From an uncultured Pirellulaceae bacterium (GTDB lineage: Bacteria; Planctomycetota; Planctomycetia; Pirellulales; Pirellulaceae), in assembly GCA_964408465.1 (NCBI GenBank), contig CAYOZV010000009.1, positions 1 to 45,752 of the forward strand: DNA of 45,752 bases, read 5' to 3'. The position numbers were made by a program, and so were the translations under genes. This document shows positions 7,667 to 32,715 of this stretch, piece after piece. Below the pieces are notes generated by a model. It searched no databases and was not told where the DNA came from. It was given only the letters and a program-made list of their open reading frames with translations. Position 1 is the first letter of the stretch. Each line of letters begins with the position of its first letter.

Positions 7667-9619
7667 TTAGTTTCCGCTTTGTCTGAAAATGGATTCTGCG
7701 GAAACCCCCATTTTATTTAGCAGAGGCAGTATTTGCATCCTCAGGAAATCGCCGTGCTGTTTCTGCAGACGTTTGACCGATGTGGACGACAGCGATGTCT
7801 GTTTTTGCTGGAAGACATGATGAAGTTGGACTTGGCCGTCTTTGTCGGACCGAAGATTTAATATGGTTTCGCCATCCTTCCAAAAAACGAAAATTGAGAA
7901 ACCAATTTTTGGATGTTCGCTGAGCAGATAAAACAGATCTTCTGCCTCGTCCTCGAAAAGGAATTTGAAGAAGGTGCGTTTTCCCCGCACGTCTCTCCAA
8001 CGGTTTTGCTCGGGGTGGACCATCAGTGTCATGCGCAGGTCCGATTTGTACATCGTTCGATTCAGCGACTTCGTTTTATTGTTGTTCAATTCAGCGGCGT
8101 GGTCAGAAACCTCGGACCGGACTTTTACATTGTCGGCGATGCGTTGGAATAAAATTTGCTCGTATCCAAGTCCCGCGACGTTGTGTTCGCCGCCCATCTT
8201 CAGCCAAGATTTTGGCAAGCCGGAGGCTTCGAAAGATTGCCTGACCTCCTTCATCAGTTGTGTGGGAGTTTTGCCGTCGAATGTTTTGCTCCAGTGGCTG
8301 CGGTCGATCGCTAGGTTACCTCGATCGTCCAGTTTCAGCTTCAGTAAATCTTTCAGTGGTTGTTCAACCTGTTCCCGTCCGGTCTTTCTCAGGCGGCGGC
8401 GAGTCTTGGGCGCCGGTGGATTCGTTAGGTTGGCGTTTGCATTTGCGTTTGGTTCTTCCTTGACCGTTTTTGTTGGCTGGGACTTGGTGGCTTCGGTTTG
8501 CCATTGTGATACCCAATTGGACCACGCATCGACATCGTCGCCGAAGTTTTGGTCGGTAACTGTTTCGAGTTGCTGGATCGTATTTCGGATGGACTGTTTG
8601 GATGTCTTGGTTGCAACTTGATGACTCAATAACTTCGCTAGAATCTCCGGCGACTTTAAAAGTTTCCCGTCGACGACGGTGTTGATCATTAAAACGGTGG
8701 ATTCATCGTCGCTGGCCTGGAGCGCCTCGATGAAGCGCGCTCTTGTTTCCAACGGTAGATTGTTGGACGCCAGCATCGCGGCAACGGCGACAATATGTTG
8801 GTCTAGGTGTTTCGACAGATTTTGCGATTCTTGTTTTCGCAGCTTGAATTTTTTAGAGGCTAGATTTGGAAACGTTGCTTCAAATGTTTTTCGATCTTCG
8901 TCAGAAAAATTAAGAATGGATTCGAGCAATTCTTCAATGTTTGAACGCGCAGCAACCTTGGGTACTCCCAGTCCTGCGGCGCGAAAGCGATCGAGCGTCG
9001 TGGCGAATTCTGATTGCGCGATCAGTTCGTTGATCGTTTCATCAGACATGTGGGTAAAAGAATCACCTTCGATGGCAACCAGAGTTAGGCGGTGGTGCGT
9101 CTGACGCACGATGTGGATATGTTCTTGTGCCAGATTCACCGAAATCATGGAGAGGCGTTGTTCGGCATCGTCCAGTTCAATTTCGACACGGTTGGTGGCA
9201 TCGGTAAGGTCTGTCAGCCTGATGATCTTTTGATTCTCTTTTTTCTGTCCCCACCGATCGGTGCCGGAGTTGATCATGAACTGTGCGACGTCAGATTCGC
9301 TCTGGCAAAAGAATTTGCCACCACCGGATGAACGCGAGCTTGAGTAGGCGTTTTTGACGATAGATTTGCTGAGTTCTTCGACCTCGTCATGCTTGGGGAA
9401 CTCTAGGACAAAACGCCCGTCCTTGGCTTCGATTGCGATTTTTTCGGCCAACGCCGCACGGGCGTCGATCATGGCTTGGGTGGATTTGGGGTCCGAGTTC
9501 CGCTTCCCAAACCCAAACAATTGGGCGTGGGATGCTGAGATCAATGCCGTCGAGAAAATAAACGCAGCCATCGCCGCGACCAAAGCGCGGTTGATGGAGG
9601 TAGGTTGGGTGTGATTCAT
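7667..9619 (-). CDS. Exported hypothetical protein (~650 aa) with a HEAT-like central region
   Basis: Long ORF; signal peptide after ATG 9619 (RALVAAMAAFIFSTALISASHA); helical motifs LASKKFKLR and LETVTDQNFGDDVDAWSNW. The ORF track extends it to 9790. Confidence 0.75.
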   Translation of the reverse strand: MNHTQPTSINRALVAAMAAFIFSTALISASHAQLFGFGKRNSDPKSTQAMIDARAALAEKIAIEAKDGRFVLEFPKHDEVEELSKSIVKNAYSSSRSSGGGKFFCQSESDVAQFMINSGTDRWGQKKENQKIIRLTDLTDATNRVEIELDDAEQRLSMISVNLAQEHIHIVRQTHHRLTLVAIEGDSFTHMSDETINELIAQSEFATTLDRFRAAGLGVPKVAARSNIEELLESILNFSDEDRKTFEATFPNLASKKFKLRKQESQNLSKHLDQHIVAVAAMLASNNLPLETRARFIEALQASDDESTVLMINTVVDGKLLKSPEILAKLLSHQVATKTSKQSIRNTIQQLETVTDQNFGDDVDAWSNWVSQWQTEATKSQPTKTVKEEPNANANANLTNPPAPKTRRRLRKTGREQVEQPLKDLLKLKLDDRGNLAIDRSHWSKTFDGKTPTQLMKEVRQSFEASGLPKSWLKMGGEHNVAGLGYEQILFQRIADNVKVRSEVSDHAAELNNNKTKSLNRTMYKSDLRMTLMVHPEQNRWRDVRGKRTFFKFLFEDEAEDLFYLLSEHPKIGFSIFVFWKDGETILNLRSDKDGQVQLHHVFQQKQTSLSSTSVKRLQKQHGDFLRMQILPLLNKMGVSAESIFRQSGN

Positions 9620-9831
9620 CAGATTTCCAGATCGTGCAACGGTAACCGATTGTGGTTGGTTCTCATTGTATGAGGTTTTCGCCACCACCGCAGGCCATTG
9701 TGAGGGTGGCACACTCGGACAAGATTTCGTGTTACGATTGTCGCGCGAGATTGACTGCCGATGCGTTTCAGCAATCTTGCGTTCCAGCAATCTTGCACAC
9801 CAGCCATCTTTCTTCAGCCGCGATCTATCAC

Positions 9832-11106
9832 TTGTTTTTTTCCCGCGATTCGAAATCGACTAAATCTACGGAACATCGTCGGACGCAGCGGGCTAATTTT
9901 ATTCGTTTATCCGCGTATCAAGTGTTAATGCGGATCGGGTGGATGTTCAAAACAGAGAGCATCATCATGCCGGCCTTCATGGATTTGATTGGCGGTGCGA
10001 GTTGGCAGCGCGGCTGTTTGCCGATGCTAAATCGTTTGGGCCAGTCGATTCCACCGTTGTTGTTTTCGGATCGGATTCGTAATGTCCAATTGAAAAAGAA
10101 CGCGCTGTGCCTGTGGACGACGATGGCCGGAAGTTGCTTTGTCTTTTTGGCTTTCTGCTGGTGGGGCACCGGGGGGCAGAACCGAGTTTGGTGGCCTTGG
10201 TTGTTTTTAACGGTGTACGCGATTTTCTTTGTCGTTTCCGGCGTCAATCAATTGTTGTTTAATACGCTGATGGGAAAACTGATCGTCGCTCAGCAGCGCG
10301 GGAGACTGGCTGCCGCGGGGAGCTTGATCAGTGGCGTCGCGTTCACGGGGCTCGCCTTCGCGCTGCTGCAGCCTTGGTTGGAGTCAACGCCGCCTCGGTT
10401 CGGTTTGATTTTCGGGACCGCAGGTTTGGCGATGATTGGTTCCGTCGGGATTGCCCGGTGGTTCATCGAAGCCCCGGACGTCGAGCAAAGCAATTTGCGG
10501 ACGGGCATCGAGATCATTGCCAACGCGCGGAGAATTGTCATTCAGGATCGAAACTTCTGTTTGCTTGCGATTGCGGGTGCGATGTTTGGGATGTCGATTA
10601 CTTTGTCACCGCACTACCAGGCCATCGCGCGCGAAAAATTGGCCACCGGTTATCAAACGTTGCTGTATTGGATTGTGGCCCAGCAGGCGGGAGCGGCGTT
10701 GCTGAGCGTGCCGGCGGGGTGGTACGCAGATCGCTTTGGTAATCGAAGCATCTTGCGAGTTTTGATGGGGCTTTTGTGTGTCGCGCCGACGATGTTGATC
10801 GTGTTGCAATGGTTTGATTCGCCGTGGCAGATCTTCTATTTGGTGATTTTCTTTTTGCTGGGGCTGATGCCATTGGTGTTTCGGTTTTTCAATAACTATG
10901 CGCTCGAAATTACTTCACCTGAAAACCACCCCGCTTATCTTAGTACGATCAGCTGTTGCATTTCGTTACCCGTGATCGTGTCGTCACTGTTGGTGGGGTG
11001 GCTGATCGACGCAATGGGTCTGACTGTCGTGTTCGGGGGCGTGTTGGCATTGTTACTGATAGGCTGGGCCGCGACGTTTTTATTGGCGGAGCCACGCGAT
11101 GTTTAG
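9832..11106 (+). CDS. MFS transporter
   Basis: About 12 hydrophobic segments and motif GWYADRFGNR. Start uncertain: ORF open from 9652, TTG 9832 chosen. Confidence 0.82.
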   Translation: MFFSRDSKSTKSTEHRRTQRANFIRLSAYQVLMRIGWMFKTESIIMPAFMDLIGGASWQRGCLPMLNRLGQSIPPLLFSDRIRNVQLKKNALCLWTTMAGSCFVFLAFCWWGTGGQNRVWWPWLFLTVYAIFFVVSGVNQLLFNTLMGKLIVAQQRGRLAAAGSLISGVAFTGLAFALLQPWLESTPPRFGLIFGTAGLAMIGSVGIARWFIEAPDVEQSNLRTGIEIIANARRIVIQDRNFCLLAIAGAMFGMSITLSPHYQAIAREKLATGYQTLLYWIVAQQAGAALLSVPAGWYADRFGNRSILRVLMGLLCVAPTMLIVLQWFDSPWQIFYLVIFFLLGLMPLVFRFFNNYALEITSPENHPAYLSTISCCISLPVIVSSLLVGWLIDAMGLTVVFGGVLALLLIGWAATFLLAEPRDV

Positions 11107-11322: not shown

Positions 11323-12204
11323 ATGTACCGATTATCCGTGGTGGTTGTGGGCGTCGTGATGTTTTTGAACGTGTTGTCTGCACCAGCTGCGTCGCAGGAA
11401 ATCGCTGGAGTGAAATGCGTCGTTGAAGGCGATCGCAATGCACGGGAGCAGTTCAAAGCCGCACATGCCGATGGCGAAGTTTATTTTTGCTGCCGGGGAT
11501 GCGCGGCGGCGTTCATGGCTGATAGTTCCGATTATCAAACCCGCGCCAATCATCAACTGGTGGTGACTCAGCAATACACGCAGACGGCCTGTCCAATCGG
11601 GGGCGAAGCGTTCGATGTTCAGCAAACGGCAAACGTTGGTGGCGTCGAGGTCGCGTTTTGCTGTGAGAAATGTAGAGCTCAAGTCGAATCGGCGGCCGAA
11701 TTACCAACAAAGGCCGCTTTGGTTTTTGGACCTGCGGCCTTCAAACGGGGCTTTGCCGAATCTAAATCAGCTTCAGCGGCGATGGATCTAAGCAAAGTGA
11801 AATGCTTGGTGGACCCGAAGCGTTTGGTGAAGGAGAAATTTGCTGCGGATCATCGTGACGGAAGAATCTTTTTCTGTTGCCAAGGATGTTTGCAGGCATT
11901 TCAAGCTGAGCCAAGTAAATTTTCGGTCCAGGCGAACATGCAATTGGTTTCGACAAAGCAGTACCAGCAGACGGGGTGTCCTCTGACCGACGGAGACGCC
12001 GACGCTTCAAAAACGATATCCATCCAAGGACACGAAGTCGCGTTCTGCTGCGGTGGTTGCCAAGCAAAGGTGGAATCGGCCGACGAAAAAGATCGAGCCG
12101 CGATGGTCTTTGAAGGCGACGCATTTGAGAGGGCGTTTTCCAAAGTCGGGAAAACCGAATCAAAAGAGGATATGGTCGCGCCTGAAGAATTGGCTGCGCC
12201 TTGA
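11323..12204 (+). CDS. Exported protein with four YHS/TRASH-like Cys motifs in two tandem repeats
   Basis: Signal peptide; C...FCCxxC four times; two ~120-aa repeats; GGAG RBS. Confidence 0.82.
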   Translation: MYRLSVVVVGVVMFLNVLSAPAASQEIAGVKCVVEGDRNAREQFKAAHADGEVYFCCRGCAAAFMADSSDYQTRANHQLVVTQQYTQTACPIGGEAFDVQQTANVGGVEVAFCCEKCRAQVESAAELPTKAALVFGPAAFKRGFAESKSASAAMDLSKVKCLVDPKRLVKEKFAADHRDGRIFFCCQGCLQAFQAEPSKFSVQANMQLVSTKQYQQTGCPLTDGDADASKTISIQGHEVAFCCGGCQAKVESADEKDRAAMVFEGDAFERAFSKVGKTESKEDMVAPEELAAP

Positions 12205-22276: not shown

Positions 22277-23251
22277 CTAGTCTGTTGACCTGCGGTGCAG
22301 CGTCTCAGGTCCGTGAGTCGACCGTCGAAACCAGCCTGGTGAAACGAACGATAGGTTTGCGATCAGCATGACCAACCCGAACGTCATCATTCCCATGCAA
22401 ATTCCGATCCCCAAGTGCATCGGAATTGCCAGCGTGAGCATGATTGGACGGGTGAGCTTTGGCCAGATCAAAGCCGCGTAGCCAACCTCCCAGAACAACG
22501 TCAGCAAAGTCAGCGCTGCCACGACAGTCATCTGATCCGCCATGAAAGTCATGTCGACGGTTTGGTATTCGTAGCTGGCGAGGGCACCCCAGAGTGCTTC
22601 ACCGTTCCACCATGTATCGCCCTGACATTTCCCCAAGCCTGCAAACAGATAGACCACGCACAGGTGGATCTGAATAAGCCGCGTGGCAATCGAATTCCAT
22701 GAACTCGGTTGCACTTCAACGAGATTTGGATGCTTGCGAGACTTCCACCAGCGGTCCACCGAGAACGTGTCTCCGCAGTTGCCCACGGCCAAATACAGCG
22801 TCAAGAAGGCGAGTATCTGATCCAACCCAAATAACGCACCGGTGGCGCGGTTGGCGTAGGAGATCACTAGAGCCGCGGTGATCCAAGAAAAAAACTTTGT
22901 CTGCCAACCGACAACGAAGCAAGCAACCGCCAGCAGCCCCAAAACGTGCGCCGGCATCCACAGCGCCTGTGGCAGCCAATCAAAATGGCTCCAATCGCAC
23001 GTCGATTCAAATCCATTCTGAAAAAGGTTGGCTCGATAATCTGCCGATAGCAGTTTTTCGCCGATGAACCCGTCAAATTCCAGCGTCCAGACCGCGTGCG
23101 AATACAGCACCATCAAACCCGTGAGGATTCTGATGACGGCCAACGCCTGAGGCGCGCTGGGCCGAAACCAAAACTGGTTCCAGGCCGCTGCCCATTGCAG
23201 AAGAAAGGGTTCCTCCGACGGATAGTTTTCATTGCCAGTGGAATCGCTCAT
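22277..23251 (-). CDS. HTTM-domain membrane protein (vitamin K-dependent carboxylase/SdpB-like)
   Basis: WNQFWF, LAVIRILTG, FSVDRW, RLIQIHLCVVYLFAGLGK, WWNGEA and MHLGIG..MG...FG motifs. Confidence 0.9.
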   Translation of the reverse strand: MSDSTGNENYPSEEPFLLQWAAAWNQFWFRPSAPQALAVIRILTGLMVLYSHAVWTLEFDGFIGEKLLSADYRANLFQNGFESTCDWSHFDWLPQALWMPAHVLGLLAVACFVVGWQTKFFSWITAALVISYANRATGALFGLDQILAFLTLYLAVGNCGDTFSVDRWWKSRKHPNLVEVQPSSWNSIATRLIQIHLCVVYLFAGLGKCQGDTWWNGEALWGALASYEYQTVDMTFMADQMTVVAALTLLTLFWEVGYAALIWPKLTRPIMLTLAIPMHLGIGICMGMMTFGLVMLIANLSFVSPGWFRRSTHGPETLHRRSTD

Positions 23252-24105
23252 GGTGCTGACTCCTGGGCACGGGGTGATTCTGCGAAGTCAGATCTCTTGA
23301 AGCGCCCAATCACTCGATTGGCCGGGTAGCGCAAAAACACTTCGTCGTCCAGATCAGCACCTTGGCGAACCTCAACGGGAAACGGAATGGTGCGGGTGCC
23401 AACGGACAGCTCGATTTCCTGCCCGTCATGGCGCTCCAGTAAAAATTTGCCTGTCGAACGAACCAAGGCCTTGATGCGCTTGATGGTTCTTTCGTATTCG
23501 GCTTCTTCTTGAGAGCGTTGCTTTTCTAATTCGTTGCCAAGCTCTATTTTTGCGTTTTGCAGAAGCAGCTTCACGCGTTCACTTTTTTCAAGGTTCAGTT
23601 TCTTGAATTCGCTGGGGCTGGGCGTTTGCGCGTGTTCGGCAAAGATGGTCTCGCTGAGCATGAACCAACGGTGATACAGCAGTCGCGGCCAAGCGGTATC
23701 ACGATCGGGAAACTGCCCTTCGACTTGTGTGCCGTCACTGTTGGTGATTTTGTACTGGACGAGATGACTGTCGCCGGGGTTGGGCGCGAAGAAGCGATAG
23801 CCGTGGCCCATGAACAGACCGCGATGCAGTGGCCCCAATGTTTTCGCAATCGGCGCGGTGAGGTGCTGGGAAGAAATGGGGTTGGACAAGGGGCCCAGCA
23901 CCAGCAAGAACAAATAGGCCGCAATCATTACCGACGCCAGAGTACGCTGCCAAGCTGACCAAGGTATCCGCCGCGCGACAGGCGGTGCATCCCCACTCCC
24001 GCTGTCGTCGGCCGTTGCAGATTTGCGATTGGTTGGCGTTACCGGCGGATTTGACCGCGCGGGCACCTTTGGTTTCGGTTTTCTTTTCTTGGGACTCATG
24101 ACCAT
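23248..24105 (-). CDS. DUF5819/SdpA-like membrane-anchored partner of the HTTM protein
   Basis: Single N-proximal TM helix then GYRFFAPNP; stop overlaps the HTTM start (ATGA). Confidence 0.72.
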   Translation of the reverse strand: MVMSPKKRKPKPKVPARSNPPVTPTNRKSATADDSGSGDAPPVARRIPWSAWQRTLASVMIAAYLFLLVLGPLSNPISSQHLTAPIAKTLGPLHRGLFMGHGYRFFAPNPGDSHLVQYKITNSDGTQVEGQFPDRDTAWPRLLYHRWFMLSETIFAEHAQTPSPSEFKKLNLEKSERVKLLLQNAKIELGNELEKQRSQEEAEYERTIKRIKALVRSTGKFLLERHDGQEIELSVGTRTIPFPVEVRQGADLDDEVFLRYPANRVIGRFKRSDFAESPRAQESAP

Positions 24106-24131
24106 CTAATTTTAGTTGTCGACAGCCCATG

Positions 24132-24167
24132 AAAAGAACCCGTTTCCACCGAGACGGTAAAAACGGG
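24132..24167 (-). terminator. Intrinsic terminator/attenuator after the TIGR03000 gene
   Basis: Minus strand CCCGTTTTTACCG-tct-CGGTGGAAACGGG (13 bp including two G-U pairs) followed by TTCTTTT. Confidence 0.7.
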
Positions 24168-24291
24168 CTGATAAGAATTGTTACCATCGGCACAACCGAT
24201 CATCCACTGAGGATGATTCGGTGTTGACTGGCCGCCGGAAACGAAAACTAAGTTGGGATGCAATACTCGTTTGTGGGTGCGTCTCCCAGGC

Positions 24292-25833
24292 TTAATTTTG
24301 CGCGACCGAAGTTCCGATTGAGTCGCGTGGGGATGCCCCCATTGCGATCATCTCTTTAGCTCCCGCGACCAAATTCAGCGTCTTCGTTTGGACGACTTGC
24401 TTGCCGTCCTTCACGTAGCGGACTTCGATCTTGTAATCGTTCCAGGACTGCTCGTTGGTCAGTTTACGCGTAGAAAACGTTCGGATCTTGCCTTTGGCGT
24501 TCGTCTTTTGACCGTCCAGCAGAACTTCAGCGTCAACGGGAACCTTTAAAACCAAAGTGGTAACTTGCGGTTGGTCGAATTTGAACTGCACCAAACGATC
24601 GTGACCAGGACGCATGCTGACCAATCGGGTCCGCACGATCTCGCGGCCATCTTTTTCGACGACGGCTTTGACGCGGTAGCGATAGTTTTTGTCTTTTGTC
24701 AGGTTACGCGATACGTACTGCCGCAGCGCTCCTTGTGTCTTGGTTAGTTTACCGTTGATATAAACTCTTGCTTCGCGCGGAAGTTTGAGTGATAGGATCG
24801 CTTTGTAATTGTTCTGCTTAAATTCGGTTGAACCGGCATCAGCATCTGGAATCGGGGCGTCAGGGAGGCCGTCGCCGAAACCTGATTCAGATCCCGGAGC
24901 CATGCCCGGATCGACCGGGCCGTAGATCGTACCCGGTTGTGGTTGAGCAGAATTGTCAAAAGACGGATCAAACGTCTCCGAAGCACCGTAGTCTAAAACG
25001 GGGGCGTCGTAGCTGGTTTCAACCGCTCCGGGCACACCGTAGTTTTCTAGCGTGGTGCCGATCGTTGATTCACTGCCGTAGACCGGAACTTCCATGCTGC
25101 TGATGGGGCTGGCGTAGGCGTCTTCGATGCTGCCGTAGACAAGCCCGCTGTCAAAGTTGTCGTACGATAACCCGCTGTCGTAGCTGGCAACGGGATAGGA
25201 GGAATCGAACGAGCTGATCGGATAACTGAGATCCGAAGTTCCGCTGAGATAACCTGCTCCCCAATCGCCGTAATAGTTTTCAGTAGCCGCACCCGAGTAG
25301 AGTCCGCCGGTAAGTCCGCCGGTCGATCCGTAACTGTTGCCCCCATCGTAGGACAATCCCGAACTCCAACTTGAATACCCGGGCTGTCCACCAAGGCCGC
25401 CGGTTGATCCGCCGCCTGCAATCGCGAAAGATCCCCTTGATCCCCATCCGCCGGTTGAGCCACCATCTAATAATCCGCCACCGAACAAACGATTCCTCAA
25501 CGCGCCTCCGCCCAACAACCCGCCGCGACTGCCAGCGAAGCCCATGCTTCCGCCGTATCCGTTTCCGCCAATATCAGAGATGCGATCGCCGATGCGGCCA
25601 AGACCGTCGCCGACGATTCCAACACTGGTGCCCACGATACCCAGTAGGTTTCGTAGGGGGCGTCTTCCGGCCAGCAAACCGCCGCCGCCCCAACTGCCAC
25701 CACCGGAACCAAATCCGCCGCGCGAACTTCCCCAGCTTCCGCCATAGGCGTGGGCCGATTCAGAAAGTCCTAACGACAACACGATCATCAAAGCGAGGAT
25801 CGCTCCGAGTTTGCCTGTCCATTGCCTGATCAT
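24292..25833 (-). CDS. Exported protein: Gly/Ser/Tyr low-complexity region + two TIGR03000-type domains
   Basis: AGGAG RBS and ATG 25833; signal peptide ending AHA; two copies of L-x-L/V-P-x-x-A-x-V-x-x-x-G-x-x-T...G-x-x-R-x-Y/F. Confidence 0.85.
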   Translation of the reverse strand: MIRQWTGKLGAILALMIVLSLGLSESAHAYGGSWGSSRGGFGSGGGSWGGGGLLAGRRPLRNLLGIVGTSVGIVGDGLGRIGDRISDIGGNGYGGSMGFAGSRGGLLGGGALRNRLFGGGLLDGGSTGGWGSRGSFAIAGGGSTGGLGGQPGYSSWSSGLSYDGGNSYGSTGGLTGGLYSGAATENYYGDWGAGYLSGTSDLSYPISSFDSSYPVASYDSGLSYDNFDSGLVYGSIEDAYASPISSMEVPVYGSESTIGTTLENYGVPGAVETSYDAPVLDYGASETFDPSFDNSAQPQPGTIYGPVDPGMAPGSESGFGDGLPDAPIPDADAGSTEFKQNNYKAILSLKLPREARVYINGKLTKTQGALRQYVSRNLTKDKNYRYRVKAVVEKDGREIVRTRLVSMRPGHDRLVQFKFDQPQVTTLVLKVPVDAEVLLDGQKTNAKGKIRTFSTRKLTNEQSWNDYKIEVRYVKDGKQVVQTKTLNLVAGAKEMIAMGASPRDSIGTSVAQN

Positions 25834-26183
25834 CAATATCTCCTAGTTCGTCGGTTGCAAAATCATGGTTGTCAGTCTCTAAGAGCCGAACAATTCAAAC
25901 GCCGATCCTAAACGGACGGCGCGGGTTTGTTATTGTCCCACGAAGCACTGGCAATTCAATGTCGGCACTGGCCGACATTGGAAGAAAAAGCGGAGATATT
26001 TTCCGGCAATCCAAGAATCGCCTGAATCCCGTCACGAAACCCTTTTTGAAACCGGTAACCCATTCTCAATCCCATGAACAATACTCAATTCCCTCACTAA
26101 TTCTCCGCTGATTCCTTCGTGGGTGGCGGCCAATTGGAAATGGCTACTGGAAAAAAAGCCGAAAATTTGCTCAATTGCAGCCT

Positions 26184-27302: not shown

Positions 27303-27890
27303 TCACTCTCCCAGTTCGAAATCTTCGATGCCGAGGTCTTCCATCGTTTTGGAAAGTGCGTCATCTGGTTTTTCAACGCCGGATTCTTTGGCGTCGCCAC
27401 TGCCGGTGTGCTTTTGAACCTGCAAGCGGTTGGCCTCGACCGAAACGACTTTCACTGATTCCCCCGCTTCGATAGGAAAGCCCTTGGTCAACGCGTCGAA
27501 CTTTTGATCGTCGATGATGACAATACCACTGGGGTACATTTTGGTGTGGGCGACGCCAATTTTTCCAATCTGATCAGCCACACGCAGGTAGTGACTGTCC
27601 TTGGGCATGACGTTCTCTTTTTTTATATCGCCGATCAGGATCATCCGCCCAATCGGTGTGTGGGGCCAGATCTTGACCGCTGCGGCAAATAGGAACGGGA
27701 TTGCGACGACAATCAGCAGCAGGAAAATGGATCCGTACATCACGCTGTGTAAGAACGCCGCCGCCACGGATGCAATTGCAATCAGCAGCGCCAAAATGCC
27801 AACGGTCCCCGCGGTCGGCAGAAAGACCTCGACCGACAGCAGCAACAGCGCGACCAGAATGCCAATGATGGACAGAAGTAAATAGGACAT
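27303..27890 (-). CDS. Short NfeD-family protein (TM + OB-fold)
   Basis: EVFLPTAG TM motif; IGKIGVAHTKMYPSG...DA.T.G..IEAGE.VKVV OB-fold. Confidence 0.88.
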   Translation of the reverse strand: MSYLLLSIIGILVALLLLSVEVFLPTAGTVGILALLIAIASVAAAFLHSVMYGSIFLLLIVVAIPFLFAAAVKIWPHTPIGRMILIGDIKKENVMPKDSHYLRVADQIGKIGVAHTKMYPSGIVIIDDQKFDALTKGFPIEAGESVKVVSVEANRLQVQKHTGSGDAKESGVEKPDDALSKTMEDLGIEDFELGE

Positions 27891-27952
27891 GGGAGTATCG
27901 GTCGGACGAAGTATCGGTTGGCCGGTTGAGTCGGCAGGGTTGCGATTTTAGT

Positions 27953-30268
27953 TTACGCCGAAACCTTTTTGACGACCACTCTATTAGCGACCGCCTCGAT
28001 GACTTCGATCGCTTCTCCCTTTTCGACGACTTGTCCTCGTGTGATGACGTCGCAAATTTGATCGCCAAACTGAGCGCGGCCTGAGGGCATCAGTTTTGTG
28101 GCGGCGACTCCCTTTTGCCCCATCAGGTAATCGAGGTTCGCCGTTGCTTCGGAGTCCTGCGCGTTTGCTAGATCGAGTTCCGGTTTTTTGGGCGGTGCTA
28201 AAATTACGTTTTTCAAAAATGGTGTGTCGGGGATTAGACGCGGCAGTACCAGCACGGCAATCAAAATCCCAAACCCGGCACCTGCCAACGGGAAAAGTGA
28301 ATTGGGCAGTTTTTCGACGTCTCTGGCATTGAGCGGGACCAAAAATGACTGGGCTGCCAACACAATAGCGGCACACACCATTAAAATTCCGCCGATGCCA
28401 AAAATTCCGAAACCAGGAATGACAAAGACTTCCATCAGGATGAAAGCGATTCCAATCCCAAACAGAAGTATCTCAAACCACTCGGCATTGCCATCAAAAT
28501 ACTGGGCCCAAAAGAATGCTACTAAACACAGCGTCCCCAAAAATCCTGGCACGCCTAAACCAGGGGCCGACATCTCCGTCGATATAAAGAAAAAAGCGCC
28601 CATAATCAGCAAGGATGAAATGGTCGGTGAGGTCAAAAATGAAGCCAGCGATTGAATCCAACGGTCTGACGAAGTTGGGGCTAACACTTTGGGGGGGGCG
28701 CTTAATTGAAAGATGGATTCGATATCCGACGGGTTTTGGATCACGTTCGAAGCGATCGCCAACTGTTTCAATGGATTGGCCTTGATTCCAACGGTGGTGT
28801 CCACCAACCCCGAAAGCTCCCATTGCTGGCTGTCCTCCAGTGACTCCCATTCTTGGACCGAAAGTAAACGAGCGTCTCCGGTGGCTGGGTTGCGATACCG
28901 CGCGATCTCGATTTCTGCGTCGATCATTGCCGCCAAAACCGACCAGTCGCGTTCTTTTTCCGCCGCGATCGACTTGGCGTCGCTGAGGTAGCTGCTGCGG
29001 TGATTGGAACTGACGGAATTAGGCCGTGAATCGCCTGGTTGGGCGGCCGGTTCAAACCCACCCAACGTCGCCGATTGTTGGATCACAATTTGATCGCAGG
29101 CCAACGCCGCAAACGCTGATCCAGATCTGGCCGAATCATTGATGACCGCAACCGTGCGCACGTCGGCCGAATCGAACTCCGCGATCATGCGAGCCAGATC
29201 GACGCCGGCCTCTAAGTCGCCGACCGAATCATCCATTTCCAGCAACAATAAATTGGCTTTATGGTATGCGACCGCTGGTTTGACCGAGCGGATGATCCAA
29301 CGCGCGGTGCGTCGATCCAAAAACTCTGGCACTTTGATCGAAATCGCTTTCCACTGCCCACCGTCGGAGGCATCGATGTTGAGTTGGTCGGCGGCCAGAT
29401 TGAGTTTCCGGGCCAGATCAGATTTAGATTTCACTCGATGGCTGATCAAGCGGAACTCTGCAAGTTTTTCGCTGGTCAAAAGGGCGCGCTGATTGGCAGG
29501 GGCCAGTGTGATGGTTTCGGTTTTGGCGTTTTCGATCTCCCCCAGTTGTTGAGCGCTGGCGAAAATGATTTTCTCTGGCGTCGTGACTCGAAACAGCCCA
29601 CGATCATTCTCCAGCATGCTCAGGACCACTTCGACCGGCAATGCGTAACGTCGGGACGCAATGTCTTTGTAGATGTTTGCGACGATCGCATCGACAGGTT
29701 CTTCGCCGGCACCCGCGTTGCCGATGGCAGTACCGTATTCCATCACAATCTCCGAGCAGGCGATGGCAACCAAGACGGCGTGGCCGTTGAGCTGACCGTT
29801 GATTTTTTCTGGGCTGCCCAGAGCACCTCGGTCACTCGGATCTCCCCGCCCCGCCCGATTGGCGGATATGTAGGCAATCGTTTGAATGCGGGCCATTGCG
29901 GGCGACGTTAGCAACCGGGCGAGTCCGAAGCAGGCGGTGAGATCGCTGCTGGCTCCGGTGTTGATTTCTGTGGTTTCGAATTCCAACATCACCACAGGAC
30001 GAGTAGCGATCGTGTGCCTCGCGGCGGCCTCCGCAGCGGCGGTCTGCAGAGCACGCTCGATTTTCTGTCTCGTTGAGGGCGTGATCGGCAGCGGAACGCG
30101 GATCACGACGCTGCTGCGCGGCAGTGTTGCCACCTCCGCTGGAGAATCAGCAGATTTAGCCGTGGCGTCTTTGACTTGCGAAAGTGCGTACGTCGAAAAC
30201 ATCAATGTCGCAACCACCGGAAGCACAAACAGTCTGGTGATCGCTGCAGGTTTGTTTTGAAGTTGCAT
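27953..30268 (-). CDS. nfeD: Long NfeD-family membrane protein with two ClpP/crotonase-like domains
   Basis: Signal peptide; TIAYI..GHAVLVAIACSEIVM and RTVAVI..ARSGSAFAALACDQIVI; EMSAPGLG and EVFVIPGFG TM motifs; C-terminal OB-fold. ORF open to 30334. Confidence 0.88.
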   Translation of the reverse strand: MQLQNKPAAITRLFVLPVVATLMFSTYALSQVKDATAKSADSPAEVATLPRSSVVIRVPLPITPSTRQKIERALQTAAAEAAARHTIATRPVVMLEFETTEINTGASSDLTACFGLARLLTSPAMARIQTIAYISANRAGRGDPSDRGALGSPEKINGQLNGHAVLVAIACSEIVMEYGTAIGNAGAGEEPVDAIVANIYKDIASRRYALPVEVVLSMLENDRGLFRVTTPEKIIFASAQQLGEIENAKTETITLAPANQRALLTSEKLAEFRLISHRVKSKSDLARKLNLAADQLNIDASDGGQWKAISIKVPEFLDRRTARWIIRSVKPAVAYHKANLLLLEMDDSVGDLEAGVDLARMIAEFDSADVRTVAVINDSARSGSAFAALACDQIVIQQSATLGGFEPAAQPGDSRPNSVSSNHRSSYLSDAKSIAAEKERDWSVLAAMIDAEIEIARYRNPATGDARLLSVQEWESLEDSQQWELSGLVDTTVGIKANPLKQLAIASNVIQNPSDIESIFQLSAPPKVLAPTSSDRWIQSLASFLTSPTISSLLIMGAFFFISTEMSAPGLGVPGFLGTLCLVAFFWAQYFDGNAEWFEILLFGIGIAFILMEVFVIPGFGIFGIGGILMVCAAIVLAAQSFLVPLNARDVEKLPNSLFPLAGAGFGILIAVLVLPRLIPDTPFLKNVILAPPKKPELDLANAQDSEATANLDYLMGQKGVAATKLMPSGRAQFGDQICDVITRGQVVEKGEAIEVIEAVANRVVVKKVSA

Positions 30269-30624
30269 GAGCGATAGTAAAAAGTGAATTTTGGTGTGGC
30301 AAAGGCTCCAGCCGGTATTTTGCCAATCTGACAATCTGCCAATTGAATTGGGTCCCGATGTTTTGATTATAAAGTATCGCTGCCAGCCTCAAATTCAAAC
30401 CAGCCAGTAATTTTGTCTTAGTGCTGACTTGGCTGATGGATTTCTGGGGGGCCTCAACGCTGACCCCAGGTTTAAAACGTGTTGGCTATACAGCTTATGA
30501 GGTTGATGGAAGCTTTTCGCAGGTGTTGAGAGTTGGCGGAGACAAGTTTGCTTATTCCTTTCAATGGGCAATTTTGATAGCTTGCGTTTTCAATATTCTT
30601 ACAGTTTTCACTGAGTATCGCGTG

Positions 30625-32715
30625 ATGGAAAATCAGATTCGAAAGTTTGTGGCGTTAGTTCTGCTGAGCGTGTCGCTGTCGACATTGGTCGTCACCGACG
30701 CCGTTGCAGGTGGCGGCCCCGAAAACGTATTTCTGGTGGTCAACGGTGAATCTCGATCGTCGAAAGTGATTGCGAATCACTACATCGCCCTGCGGAATAT
30801 TCCTGCCAGCCATGTGCTTTATCTGTCGGGCGTGACGACTCGCGAAATTATCAAATTGACTGATTTTCGCGAACAGATCCTCGAACCGATTCTGACCGAA
30901 ATGGTCGCTCGCAAGCTCATCGAGAACATTGACTATATCGTGTACTCATCTGACTTTCCGACGCGCGTCAATATCTCCGAACATCAGGATTTACTAAAGG
31001 AGGCATTTGGTAAGCGCTTTCAATCAAAGATCTATGCACCGATCGCGTCGCTTACCTCTATGACTTATTTTGCGGCTCATGTAATGTCCAATGATCCCAA
31101 CTATATGGCGCTAAACTCGAATCACTATTACCGAATCCCTTTTCGGTCGAGCCTGAATAAACCATTCGAAGGTACGGTTCAACAGGAGTATCGCCAGTCT
31201 GTTGCCGCGCTGAACAAATCGGGCGACGAGTTCAACACTGCGAAAATAAAGTTGCTTGAGTTGTCAAAAAAGTATCCAGGGCAATCGGCCGTTCATTATC
31301 AATTGGCTAAATTTTTCGCCAAAGGTGACGAAAACGTGCTGGCGATGCAGTCTTTAAAACGCGCGACGGCCATGGGATGGAGAGACGTTGCTCAAATGCA
31401 ACGAGAGAAGGTTTTTGACGGCCTCGAAGACGATCCGCAATTCAAAGCCTTGGTGGAGCGATACGGTAAAATTGAATCGCCCTTCATTCCCACCCACGGG
31501 TTTCGCAACGCTTACGCTTGGGGTCCCAATGGGATGATCAACCGAACGGGGCAAGGCAGACGATATTTCCTGTGCGCGATGCTGTCGGTGACACGCGACT
31601 TCGGGCTCAGCGACCGGGATTCGATCGACTACCTCAGTCGCTCTGTCGCCGCCGACGATTCTCATCCAGAGGGAACGATTTACTTTACGCACACCAAAGA
31701 CGTGCGCACGACGACTCGGCTGGGTAATTTCAATCCCGTCATTCAAATTTTAAAACAGATGGGCCAAACCGCACGGGTCGAAACAACAAAACTGCCAAGC
31801 AATCGCGATGACATCATTGGGCTGTCTTGCGGTACCGCTGGGTTTGACTTTGAAGCTTCTGGCAGCAGTTTTATTCCAGGTGCGATCGCCGATAATTTGA
31901 CCAGTAGCGGAGGCTATTTTATCGGGGCGCAGCAGACAAAAGTAACGGAGTTTTTGCGATTCGGCGCCGCCGGAGTCAGCGGCACCGTGGTCGAACCTTA
32001 CGCGCTGCAGGCTAAATTCCCTCACCCTATGATTCATGTCCATTACTTGGCAGGTTGTTCGCTGGCAGAGGCGTTCTACCAGTCGGTTCACGGGCCCTAT
32101 CAGATTATTTTGGTCGCTGATCCATTGTGCCAACCGTTTGTCAAACGGCCGAAAATCGTCATCACTTCCCCTGCCCCGATGGCGGAGGTTTCTGGCCAGG
32201 TGAAAATCGAATTGTCGCGCGAAGGGTCTGAAGTGCCGGCAGCGGGAGTAGAGATTTTTCTTGACGGCGCGATGATTCATCGTGCGTCGAATATTAAATC
32301 TATCAATTTAGACACGAGTGATTTGAAAGACGGATTTCACGAACTACGAATCGTGTCGGTCTCAAGAGACGGCATTGAGTCGCGCGGCAGCGCCGTGTTA
32401 CCCGTAATGATCAATAACAAAGATCTCTTCACGACACTCTCGATTGAGAAAACGACCTGCGATTTTCCAATGCCAATCGAAGTTAGCGCCGAAACAAATT
32501 TTGGCCAAAGAATCATCATCCGCCAAAACTTCAAAACGGTGGGCGTCATCACATCCGAAAAAGGATCGACCGAAATTCCTACCGGTTCCTTAGGCGTCGG
32601 AGAGATCAAGCTGCAAGCGGTCTCCTTTCGTGATGGTGAAAATGCGGGTGTTGCCTCGGCGCCGATCACCGTCACGGTGAAAGGGACGATAGCGACGATT
32701 CCAGATAAAAAGTAA
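30625..32715 (+). CDS. TIGR03790-type exported protein with TPR insert and C-terminal Ig-like domains
   Basis: Signal peptide; GPENVFLVVN..S..IANHY...RNIP, PGAIADNLTS.GG, GAAGVSGTVVEP and ADPLCQPF motifs. ORF open from 30421. Confidence 0.8.
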   Translation: MENQIRKFVALVLLSVSLSTLVVTDAVAGGGPENVFLVVNGESRSSKVIANHYIALRNIPASHVLYLSGVTTREIIKLTDFREQILEPILTEMVARKLIENIDYIVYSSDFPTRVNISEHQDLLKEAFGKRFQSKIYAPIASLTSMTYFAAHVMSNDPNYMALNSNHYYRIPFRSSLNKPFEGTVQQEYRQSVAALNKSGDEFNTAKIKLLELSKKYPGQSAVHYQLAKFFAKGDENVLAMQSLKRATAMGWRDVAQMQREKVFDGLEDDPQFKALVERYGKIESPFIPTHGFRNAYAWGPNGMINRTGQGRRYFLCAMLSVTRDFGLSDRDSIDYLSRSVAADDSHPEGTIYFTHTKDVRTTTRLGNFNPVIQILKQMGQTARVETTKLPSNRDDIIGLSCGTAGFDFEASGSSFIPGAIADNLTSSGGYFIGAQQTKVTEFLRFGAAGVSGTVVEPYALQAKFPHPMIHVHYLAGCSLAEAFYQSVHGPYQIILVADPLCQPFVKRPKIVITSPAPMAEVSGQVKIELSREGSEVPAAGVEIFLDGAMIHRASNIKSINLDTSDLKDGFHELRIVSVSRDGIESRGSAVLPVMINNKDLFTTLSIEKTTCDFPMPIEVSAETNFGQRIIIRQNFKTVGVITSEKGSTEIPTGSLGVGEIKLQAVSFRDGENAGVASAPITVTVKGTIATIPDKK

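What the first reader, a model, noticed from the sequence alone, without database searches (positions are those of the whole stretch)
22277..25833. Candidate extracytoplasmic protein-modification system: low-complexity exported substrate + SdpAB-like maturase pair
Seen: three co-oriented genes - an exported TIGR03000 protein, a membrane-anchored FFAPNP protein and an HTTM protein. The last two are coupled by an ATGA overlap, and the HTTM keeps the YxxAGxxK lysine. A terminator-like hairpin sits only ~27 bp before the pair, leaving little room for a separate promoter. Established: HTTM is the membrane core of vitamin K-dependent gamma-carboxylase, where this Lys is the catalytic base; Bacillus SdpA/SdpB mature the exported SdpC; MloH is a bacterial homologue acting in malonomycin biosynthesis. 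Inference: a quinone-dependent system that modifies (carboxylates, epimerises or processes) the Asp/Glu/Ser/Tyr-rich region of the upstream protein, with read-through giving much substrate and little enzyme as in RiPP clusters.
Basis: partly seen in the sequence, partly recalled or inferred. Interest (0 to 1): 0.7.

Follow-up and report, generated by a model that had tools for sequence, protein, structure and literature searches.

The report
Planctomycete serine-repeat protein modification system
Most Pirellulales bacteria examined keep a gene for a protein with a predicted export signal and many glycine-serine repeats beside two membrane-protein genes, one a relative of the human vitamin K carboxylase, and where that pair is missing the repeats are usually cysteine-rich instead, so the pair is likely an uncharacterised enzyme that chemically alters those serines outside the cytoplasm.

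Summary
Observation confirmed: gene A (signal peptide, low-complexity region, two TIGR03000 domains), a terminator-like hairpin, then B and C (HTTM) joined by ATGA. The unit is conserved: C follows B in 80 of 80 family loci and A precedes them in 71 of 80. The conserved candidate substrate is not the acidic stretch but G-S-x-G repeats. All 105 precursors from genomes with the orthologous pair carry five or more. 31 of 32 from genomes without it carry at most one, and most are Cys-rich, often at the same locus with B-C deleted. Repeat-only precursors lacking TIGR03000 also accompany the pair. C keeps the GGCX quinol-site residues (K218, W223, F299) but not the glutamate pocket (N159/H160), which argues against Glu carboxylation. 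Best reading: a periplasm-facing two-subunit enzyme that modifies the serines (about 0.85), likely by dehydration or epimerisation as in linaridins (about 0.5). The chemistry and read-through are untested, and only 2 well-supported independent losses were shown. It works like SdpAB or DUF5819-HTTM pairs but fails their cut-offs. This scan noted the same system before in another genome (e1-9984753).

The parts
24292..25833 (-). Gene A, 513-aa predicted exported precursor: signal peptide, G-S-x-G repeat region with a basic segment, acidic/Pro linker, two TIGR03000 beta-sandwich domains
   Evidence: only TIGR03000 gene found in the genome
25747..25833 (-). Predicted Sec signal peptide of A (residues 1-29, ending AHA)
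   Evidence: read from the sequence; same architecture in relatives; no dedicated predictor was run
25234..25743 (-). Gly/Ser repeat region of A (residues 31-200; 9 G-S-x-G motifs) with the RRPLRNLL basic segment: candidate substrate
24814..25233 (-). Acidic/Pro-rich linker of A (residues 201-340, 17% Asp+Glu); variable in relatives
24346..24804 (-). Tandem TIGR03000 domains (all-beta model, mean pLDDT 90.8); absent from some repeat precursors of the pair
25840..25844 (-). AGGAG ribosome-binding site of A
24190..24225 (-). Second intergenic hairpin upstream of the terminator (approximate limits); no other copy in the genome
24132..24169 (-). Intrinsic-terminator-like hairpin and U-run between A and B
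23248..24105 (-). Gene B, 285 aa: basic N-terminal tail, one predicted transmembrane helix, conserved HGYRFFAPNPG and PRLLYHR motifs; SdpA/DUF5819-like partner by resemblance
   Evidence: families not matched
22277..23251 (-). Gene C, 324-aa HTTM membrane protein, GGCX-related; K208, W214, E255, H279 and F291 invariant in 82 family members
   Evidence: only HTTM gene found in the genome
23248..23251 (-). ATGA stop/start overlap coupling B and C
   Evidence: ATGA/GTGA at B's stop in 68 of 80 relatives

Best explanation
Genes B and C likely form one membrane enzyme, a split relative of the vitamin K-dependent carboxylase predicted to face the periplasm, which would modify the serines in the G-S-x-G repeats of protein A after its predicted export, most likely by removing the alpha-proton to give dehydroalanine or D-serine. 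Shown: the gene order and its conservation; C's homology to GGCX, with the quinol-site residues kept and the glutamate pocket not kept; the co-occurrence of Ser repeats with the orthologous pair; Cys-rich regions at the same locus where the pair is gone. Inferred: that B and C bind each other and menaquinol; periplasmic topology (B's basic N-terminal tail before one helix, and the lumenal site of GGCX); that Ser is the modified residue; the chemistry (by analogy to linaridin HTTM proteins); read-through past the hairpin giving much A and little enzyme; and that the modified repeats cross-link or stiffen an envelope protein, a role that disulfides would take over in the Cys-rich versions. Odds: pair modifies A's repeats about 0.85; dehydration or epimerisation as the chemistry about 0.5 overall.
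For: Synteny: C after B in 80 of 80 and A within 500 bp upstream in 71 of 80 family loci; also in other families of the class. A, B and C are usually single-copy in these 4-10 Mb genomes, so adjacency is not chance. Repeat type follows the enzyme rather than adjacency: in 5 of 5 genomes where A had moved away from an intact pair it keeps Ser repeats. 105 of 105 precursors with the pair have at least 5 G-S-x-G motifs (median 17); 31 of 32 without have at most 1, and 27 of 32 have at least 5% Cys against 2 of 105. In 14 of 31 such loci A runs straight into asd or truA, genes found in the pair-bearing loci, so the pair was deleted there; one keeps a fragment of C and a mixed Ser/Cys repeat (L119); one with a frameshifted C has G-C-x-G repeats (L084). 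Repeat-only precursors without TIGR03000 lie directly before the pair in L255 and L257 and unlinked in G157. A profile of C relatives matches human GGCX at E 1e-25; K218, W223, D263 (as Glu), H287 and F299 equivalents are invariant in 82 of 82, and N159/H160 are Gly (82) and Leu (80) (roles from passages of 10.1101/2025.02.09.637231 and PMC12647623). A DUF5819+HTTM pair was modelled as a split GGCX, and MloH acts at an alpha-carbon (passages of 10.64898/2026.08.19.745780). Linaridin LinG is an HTTM protein suspected in Thr dehydration (passages of PMC9927463). Two PF02621 menaquinone-pathway genes are over the cut-off.
Against: No biochemical or expression data. On a FastTree of 109 tandem-domain precursors, enzyme absence and repeat type each need 6 changes, but only 2 independent pairs rest on well-supported branches (sign test p 0.5), so the correlation is not statistically shown beyond kinship. 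Cys-type precursors also sit beside Lys-bearing pairs: a divergent pair in L133/L134, and a paralogous clade with small Cys-rich exported neighbours in 12 of 16 loci, 8 of 16 of which lack the Lys. So 'Cys means no enzyme' is not universal and the family may act on Ser or Cys. Three pair-bearing genomes have mixed Ser/Cys repeats (G555, G520, G334). F299, the CO2-pocket residue, is kept, which also fits carboxylation. No alpha/beta hydrolase (linaridin LinE) was seen among the window's scanned ORFs. The window's own A is atypical, with only 9 motifs and a long acidic linker. The epimerase and dehydratase activity of the cypemycin membrane proteins is recalled; I saw only that paper's title in reference lists.
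Confidence: 0.5

Rival explanations
1. Same enzyme and same repeats, but the carbanion is carboxylated at the alpha-carbon of Ser or Gly, as MloH does for Asp, making a polyanionic metal-binding region; the Cys-rich versions would bind metal through thiolates instead.
For: [quoted passage not shown]
Against: I know no alpha-carboxylated Ser in proteins (recall); the carboxylate-anchoring residues are not kept; F299 may be kept for quinone binding alone.
Confidence: 0.15
2. The pair processes or releases A, or chaperones its export, as SdpA/SdpB are needed to process SdpC, without changing side chains; the G/S repeats are flexible cleavage or recognition sites.
For: SdpA and SdpB are required to process secreted SdpC (passages of PMC6818787); C has a weak TIGR04033 match.
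Against: It does not explain the in-register Ser-to-Cys swap (G-S-Y-G to G-C-Y-G, G-S-H-G to G-C-H-G) after loss of the pair. A has no hydrophobic C-terminal toxin segment.
Confidence: 0.12
3. Another side-chain chemistry on Ser: quinone-dependent oxidation to formylglycine followed by cross-linking, or transfer of a group to the hydroxyl.
For: Ser and Cys are alternative precursors of formylglycine (recall); one DUF5819-linked HTTM protein carries a DCC1-like domain; a quinone site is predicted.
Against: I know no HTTM protein that does this; the characterised relatives do carbanion chemistry.
Confidence: 0.1
4. One reading: the pair carboxylates Glu/Asp in A's acidic region as GGCX does.
For: GGCX homology and the catalytic Lys; the window's linker is 17% Asp+Glu.
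Against: N159/H160 are not kept. The acidic linker is variable, small in 79 of 105 pair-bearing precursors, and persists where the pair is lost. Repeat-only precursors beside the pair have almost no acidic residues.
Confidence: 0.07
5. The genes are neighbours in a conserved chromosomal block (pcm - A - B - C - asd - truA) and the pair has another substrate.
For: Housekeeping genes share the block; a terminator-like hairpin separates A from B; in other families the B/C homologues have no repeat gene beside them (L290-L302).
Against: Repeat type follows presence of the pair even when unlinked; domain-less repeat genes sit beside extra or moved copies of the pair; A-B-C stays together when the flanking genes change, as in this window.
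Confidence: 0.06

Closest known systems
Bacillus SdpA/SdpB with SdpC (TIGR04034, TIGR04033) and YitP/YitO with YitM
   Same: A small partner gene and an HTTM-type gene act with a secreted precursor (PMC6818787 passages); C matches TIGR04033 weakly.
   Different: Neither cut-off is met. The precursor is a Gly/Ser repeat protein with beta-sandwich domains, not a hydrophobic toxin; no immunity gene was recognised beside it; the unit is found in most genomes of the family.
DUF5819 + HTTM pair modelled as a split GGCX (bioRxiv 10.64898/2026.08.19.745780)
   Same: Adjacent single-helix partner plus HTTM subunit, aromatic-x-hydrophobic-F-A-P motif in the partner.
   Different: B does not score as DUF5819 (1 of 82 members at E 0.016); C has no DCC1 domain; the passages read name no substrate and no planctomycete system.
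[quoted passage not shown]
   Same: Homologous membrane core (E 1e-25); K218, W223, D263 (as Glu), H287 and F299 kept.
   Different: N159/H160 and K217 are not kept; C ends at 324 aa, without the propeptide-binding domains; the candidate substrate is Ser-rich, not Glu-rich.
Linaridin maturases LinG/LinH with LinL (cypemycin, corynaridin)
   Same: An HTTM protein acting with a second protein on hydroxy-amino-acid-rich ribosomal precursors; epimerisation is recalled.
   Different: No LinE hydrolase among the window's scanned ORFs; the precursor is a 513-aa signal-peptide protein with Ser repeats, not a short Thr-rich peptide; nearly all linaridin clusters are actinobacterial.
TIGR03000 domain proteins
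   Same: A carries two copies.
   Different: The family has no assigned function; no paper holding the term was found.

Membership tests
HTTM domain (PF05090) | Score above the gathering cut-off | tested here: met
   C 42.9 bits against 27.7
TIGR03000 domain proteins | Score above the cut-off | tested here: met
   A 123.4 bits against 43.1, two stretches
SdpABC system | SdpB family (TIGR04033) above the cut-off | tested here: not met
   52.5 bits against 178.4
SdpABC system | SdpA family (TIGR04034) above the cut-off | tested here: not met
   no hit for B; 1 of 82 members at E 0.085
SdpABC system | Secreted precursor encoded with the pair | tested here: met
   A has a signal-peptide-like N-terminus and precedes the pair in 71 of 80 loci; export itself is not shown
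SdpABC system | C-terminal hydrophobic toxin peptide | tested here: not met
   the C-terminus is two soluble beta-sandwich domains
DUF5819 + HTTM pairs | Partner is a DUF5819 (PF19136) protein | tested here: inconclusive
   no hit for B; 1 of 82 members at E 0.016; profile match, probability 93%, E 2.9e-7, to four HTTM-partner proteins, one of which hits DUF5819 below the cut-off
DUF5819 + HTTM pairs | The two proteins form a GGCX-like complex | not tested
   the single complex job scored A's domains as partner, not B against C
Vitamin K-dependent carboxylase (GGCX/MloH) | Quinol-site residues K218, W223, F299 | tested here: met
   K208, W214 and F291 invariant in 82 of 82; mapping is by profile alignment
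Vitamin K-dependent carboxylase (GGCX/MloH) | Glutamate-binding N159/H160 | tested here: not met
   Gly in 82 of 82 and Leu in 80 of 82
Vitamin K-dependent carboxylase (GGCX/MloH) | Quinol-, O2- and CO2-dependent carboxylation | not testable with these tools
   needs an assay
Linaridins | LinG-type HTTM protein | tested here: met
   HTTM domain in C; LinG described as HTTM; no LinG-specific model is available
Linaridins | LinE alpha/beta hydrolase in the cluster | tested here: not met
   none among 31 window ORFs scanned; the rest of the genome was not searched
Linaridins | LinL homologue | not testable with these tools
   LinL is defined by a custom model that was not available to me
Linaridins | Short Thr-rich leader-core precursor | tested here: not met
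   A is 513 aa; its repeat region has 14% Ser and 4% Thr

The most novel reading that the evidence does not exclude
A near-core planctomycete pathway in which a split vitamin K carboxylase relative works in the periplasm as a processive serine dehydratase or epimerase on a large envelope protein, turning up to several dozen G-S-x-G repeats into a covalently cross-linked or D-amino-acid-patterned structural polymer. Lineages that lost the enzyme rebuilt the same function with cysteines. This would be RiPP-type chemistry used for cell-envelope construction and a natural substrate for the GGCX fold outside carboxylation.
Probability: 0.3. Interest if true: 0.9.

Novelty: new variant of a known kind. 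Interest (0 to 1): 0.7.

Why it matters
Bacterial HTTM/GGCX relatives are widespread, but few have a known substrate and their chemistry is unsettled. This unit supplies a simple, repetitive candidate substrate and natural loss-of-enzyme variants. Relatives are named Pirellulaceae in the fetched record titles, a family with cultured members (recall), so the question of what the GGCX fold does without a glutamate pocket becomes directly testable. It also gives the first functional lead for TIGR03000 proteins and points to an unrecognised modification of planctomycete envelope proteins. The three-gene unit was not found in the papers searched; subscription journals and the preprint's supplement were not visible.

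Tried and rejected
Fold searches gave nothing clear. The TIGR03000 tandem model had no Foldseek match at E 0.001 or better, only Ig-like and other beta-sandwich rows. B had none in Foldseek and only helical-hairpin matches up to Z 8.0 in the wide search; GGCX was not listed, which is no evidence against the relationship. A PDB sequence search with the narrow C profile missed GGCX (the broader profile found it), and B's profile found nothing significant. Complex prediction of C + B + A's domains returned no verdict. No RNA holder was listed for the locus. The protein Atlas gave no answer. The idea that the pair is lost in anaerobes was not supported: COX1 was found in 69 of 71 genomes, including 30 of the 32 lacking an intact orthologous pair. 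The nearby Ser/Thr kinase as partner for phospho-elimination was set aside: it has no signal-peptide-like start, lies beyond truA, and was seen in 9 of 80 loci, with a short downstream flank fetched. menB was below its cut-off; the futalosine-route genes were found instead. The intergenic hairpins are not genome-wide repeats. The cypemycin reconstitution paper was not held; four reviews and papers checked for it gave only its title or unrelated passages.
Full report
Observation. The window holds three minus-strand genes: A (25833-24292, 513 aa), B (24105-23248, 285 aa) and C (23251-22277, 324 aa), with ATGA shared between B's stop and C's start. A has two TIGR03000 domains. C is an HTTM protein with a sub-threshold SdpB match. 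B matches no family. A hairpin with a U-run at 24169-24132 ends 26 bases before B. Each of A and C was found once in the 4.9-Mb genome.

Conservation. A profile of B matched 167 of 201 genomes of the window's family, the window's own included; related records are titled Pirellulaceae and Planctomycetaceae. I fetched 80 of the 150 places listed, one per genome, chosen across the E-value range and for room on the contig, not at random. C follows B in 80 of 80. A lies within 500 bp upstream on the same strand in 71 of 80, and B's stop overlaps ATGA or GTGA in 68 of 80. Of the other 9, one is cut by a contig end, two have A 1.8 and 3.8 kb upstream, and six have none within about 5 kb; five of those six were searched and all have A elsewhere. 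The triple also occurs in other families of the order and in two other families of the class. In family f99, A was found in 6 of 36 genomes; those 6 have C orthologues at E 1e-114 or better, while 7 A-less genomes tested reach only 1e-66 to 1e-86. A hairpin plus U-run follows A in 51 of 73 loci against 17 of 73 shuffled segments. In this window a B-C transcript must read through the hairpin or start within about 30 bases of B; a TAAAAT at 24114-24109 (my reading, not flagged by the scan) leaves a weak separate promoter possible.

What is conserved in A. Relatives share a signal-peptide-like start, then G-S-x-G repeats (x mostly Ser, Tyr, Trp, His) around a basic Arg/His segment, then a variable Pro/acidic linker and the domains. 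I scored 138 precursors. Left out were three without a detectable signal peptide, those with under 110 residues before the domain, G295 (C not checked), second copies, and the multi-copy families f100 and f104. With the orthologous pair (adjacent, or found elsewhere in the genome at E about 1e-100 or better): 105 of 105 have at least 5 motifs, median 17; median Ser is 29%, Cys 0% and Asp+Glu 0% in the first 90 mature residues. Without it: 31 of 32 have at most 1 motif, and 27 of 32 have at least 5% Cys (2 of 105 with the pair). The exception sits beside a 65-codon remnant of C (L119). One further genome has a frameshifted C and G-C-x-G repeats (L084); the frameshift could be an assembly error. 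Some Cys versions keep the register exactly (G-C-Y-G, G-C-W-G, G-C-H-G in L117 and L120). Absence of the pair is not only an assembly gap: 12 of these precursors lie behind the same PCMT gene found in 52 of 80 pair-bearing loci, and 14 of 31 run directly into asd or truA, genes found in 33 and 40 of the 80 pair-bearing stretches. Precursors made only of signal peptide and repeats lie directly before the pair in L255 and L257 and unlinked in G157, which has the pair but no TIGR03000 match. The repeats, not the TIGR03000 domain or the acidic linker, travel with the enzyme.

Limits of that correlation. On a FastTree of the 109 tandem-domain precursors, both traits need 6 changes; 6 independent pairs exist on the best tree but only 2 on well-supported branches, sign test p 0.5. 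Cys-type precursors also occur beside other pairs: L133/L134 (divergent, Lys kept) and a paralogous clade with small exported Cys-rich neighbours in 12 of 16 loci, with the Lys lost in 8 of 16. In f100 and f104, B/C homologues have no repeat gene beside them in the stretches fetched, and TIGR03000 genes with mixed Ser/Cys repeats lie elsewhere. The wider family may therefore act on Ser or Cys.

The enzyme. A profile of 39 C relatives matches human GGCX at E 1e-25 over the membrane core. By that alignment K218, W223, D263, H287 and F299 correspond to K208, W214, E255, H279 and F291, invariant in 82 of 82 family members; N159/H160 are Gly/Leu and K217 is mostly Gly, Ser or Ala. In GGCX, K218 deprotonates the quinol, W223 holds K218, F299 stacks on CO2 and N159/H160 bind the Glu carboxylate (passages of 10.1101/2025.02.09.637231 and PMC12647623). 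So the base and quinone site are kept and the Glu pocket is not. B models confidently (pLDDT 89.4) as one N-terminal helix, a small alpha/beta domain and a helical hairpin. Its profile matches partners of distant HTTM genes (probability 93%), one of which has a sub-threshold DUF5819 hit. The B family is large: 1,562 representatives at 50% identity with E up to 0.001. A preprint models a DUF5819+HTTM pair as a split GGCX with menaquinol and notes that MloH fuses both parts and alpha-carboxylates Asp (passages). The genome has two PF02621 menaquinone-pathway genes.

Mechanism. Inferred: A is exported by Sec; B and C assemble in the inner membrane with the site facing the periplasm; K208, probably with menaquinol, generates a base that removes the alpha-proton of Ser in G-S-x-G; the carbanion loses water (dehydroalanine, then cross-links to His, Lys or Cys) or is reprotonated from the other face (D-Ser). 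The analogy is the linaridin HTTM protein LinG, suspected in Thr dehydration (passages of PMC9927463 and 10.1101/2020.07.09.196543); the reported epimerase activity of the cypemycin membrane proteins is recalled, and I saw only the title. The switch to Cys after loss suggests a cross-linking or metal-binding role. I put 0.85 on the pair modifying the repeats and 0.5 on this chemistry; alpha-carboxylation, processing, oxidation or transfer, Glu carboxylation and mere neighbourhood share the rest.

Comparison and novelty. It works like SdpAB (passages of PMC6818787), the DUF5819-HTTM pairs and LinG, but it is not a member of SdpABC, the linaridins or the Glu carboxylases by the features tested. 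Ten literature searches returned no description of this unit; TIGR03000 was in no paper searched. Papers were seen as search listings and passages only; supplements were not read, and the preprint's supplement could list related pairs. Verdict: a real, widely conserved candidate modification system, a new variant of a known enzyme kind with a new substrate class; interest 0.7.

Noticed in passing
L048:822-2513 and 51 other family loci; own genome C60:20058-20702: A roughly 415-aa protein-L-isoaspartate O-methyltransferase (PF01135) with a signal-peptide-like N-terminus and an extra C-terminal domain lies in 52 of 80 loci, upstream of A on the same strand in nearly all, and before 12 Cys-type precursors; in this genome it is elsewhere. 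An exported SAM-dependent repair enzyme is odd and might belong to the system.
   Followed up: partly
L136:3507-5957, L147:4660-6970, L137, L138, L141-L145, L303, L306, L307: A paralogous B/C pair with its own small exported Cys-rich precursor (G-H-G-C-x-G-C start, often FRR end, no TIGR03000); the catalytic Lys is lost in 8 of 16 copies.
   Followed up: partly
own genome contig C109: A 140-aa ORF with a signal-peptide-like start and 8 G-[S/C]-x-G motifs, a possible second substrate in trans.
   Followed up: no
L290-L297: In family f100 the HTTM subunit lies in open frames of 600-1060 aa with a large insertion after the first helix, B is also longer, and no repeat gene was flagged beside them.
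   Followed up: no
L263, L264: Second tandem-TIGR03000 genes in two genomes with a short Gly/Tyr/Trp/Pro-rich region instead of Ser repeats.
   Followed up: no
window 27303-30334 (-): Two NfeD-like genes in tandem (195 aa and 793 aa).
   Followed up: no
window 30421-32715 (+): 764-aa protein with a sub-threshold-length TIGR03790 match above the cut-off score, a TPR end-of-group domain and an Ig domain.
   Followed up: no
window 11323-12204 (+): 293-aa protein with repeated YHS/TRASH-like metal-binding motifs next to lpxB.
   Followed up: no
window 7667-11106: A 707-aa minus-strand ORF without Pfam match overlaps a 484-aa plus-strand ORF whose MFS match covers only its last 140 residues; gene calls here need a check.
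   Followed up: no
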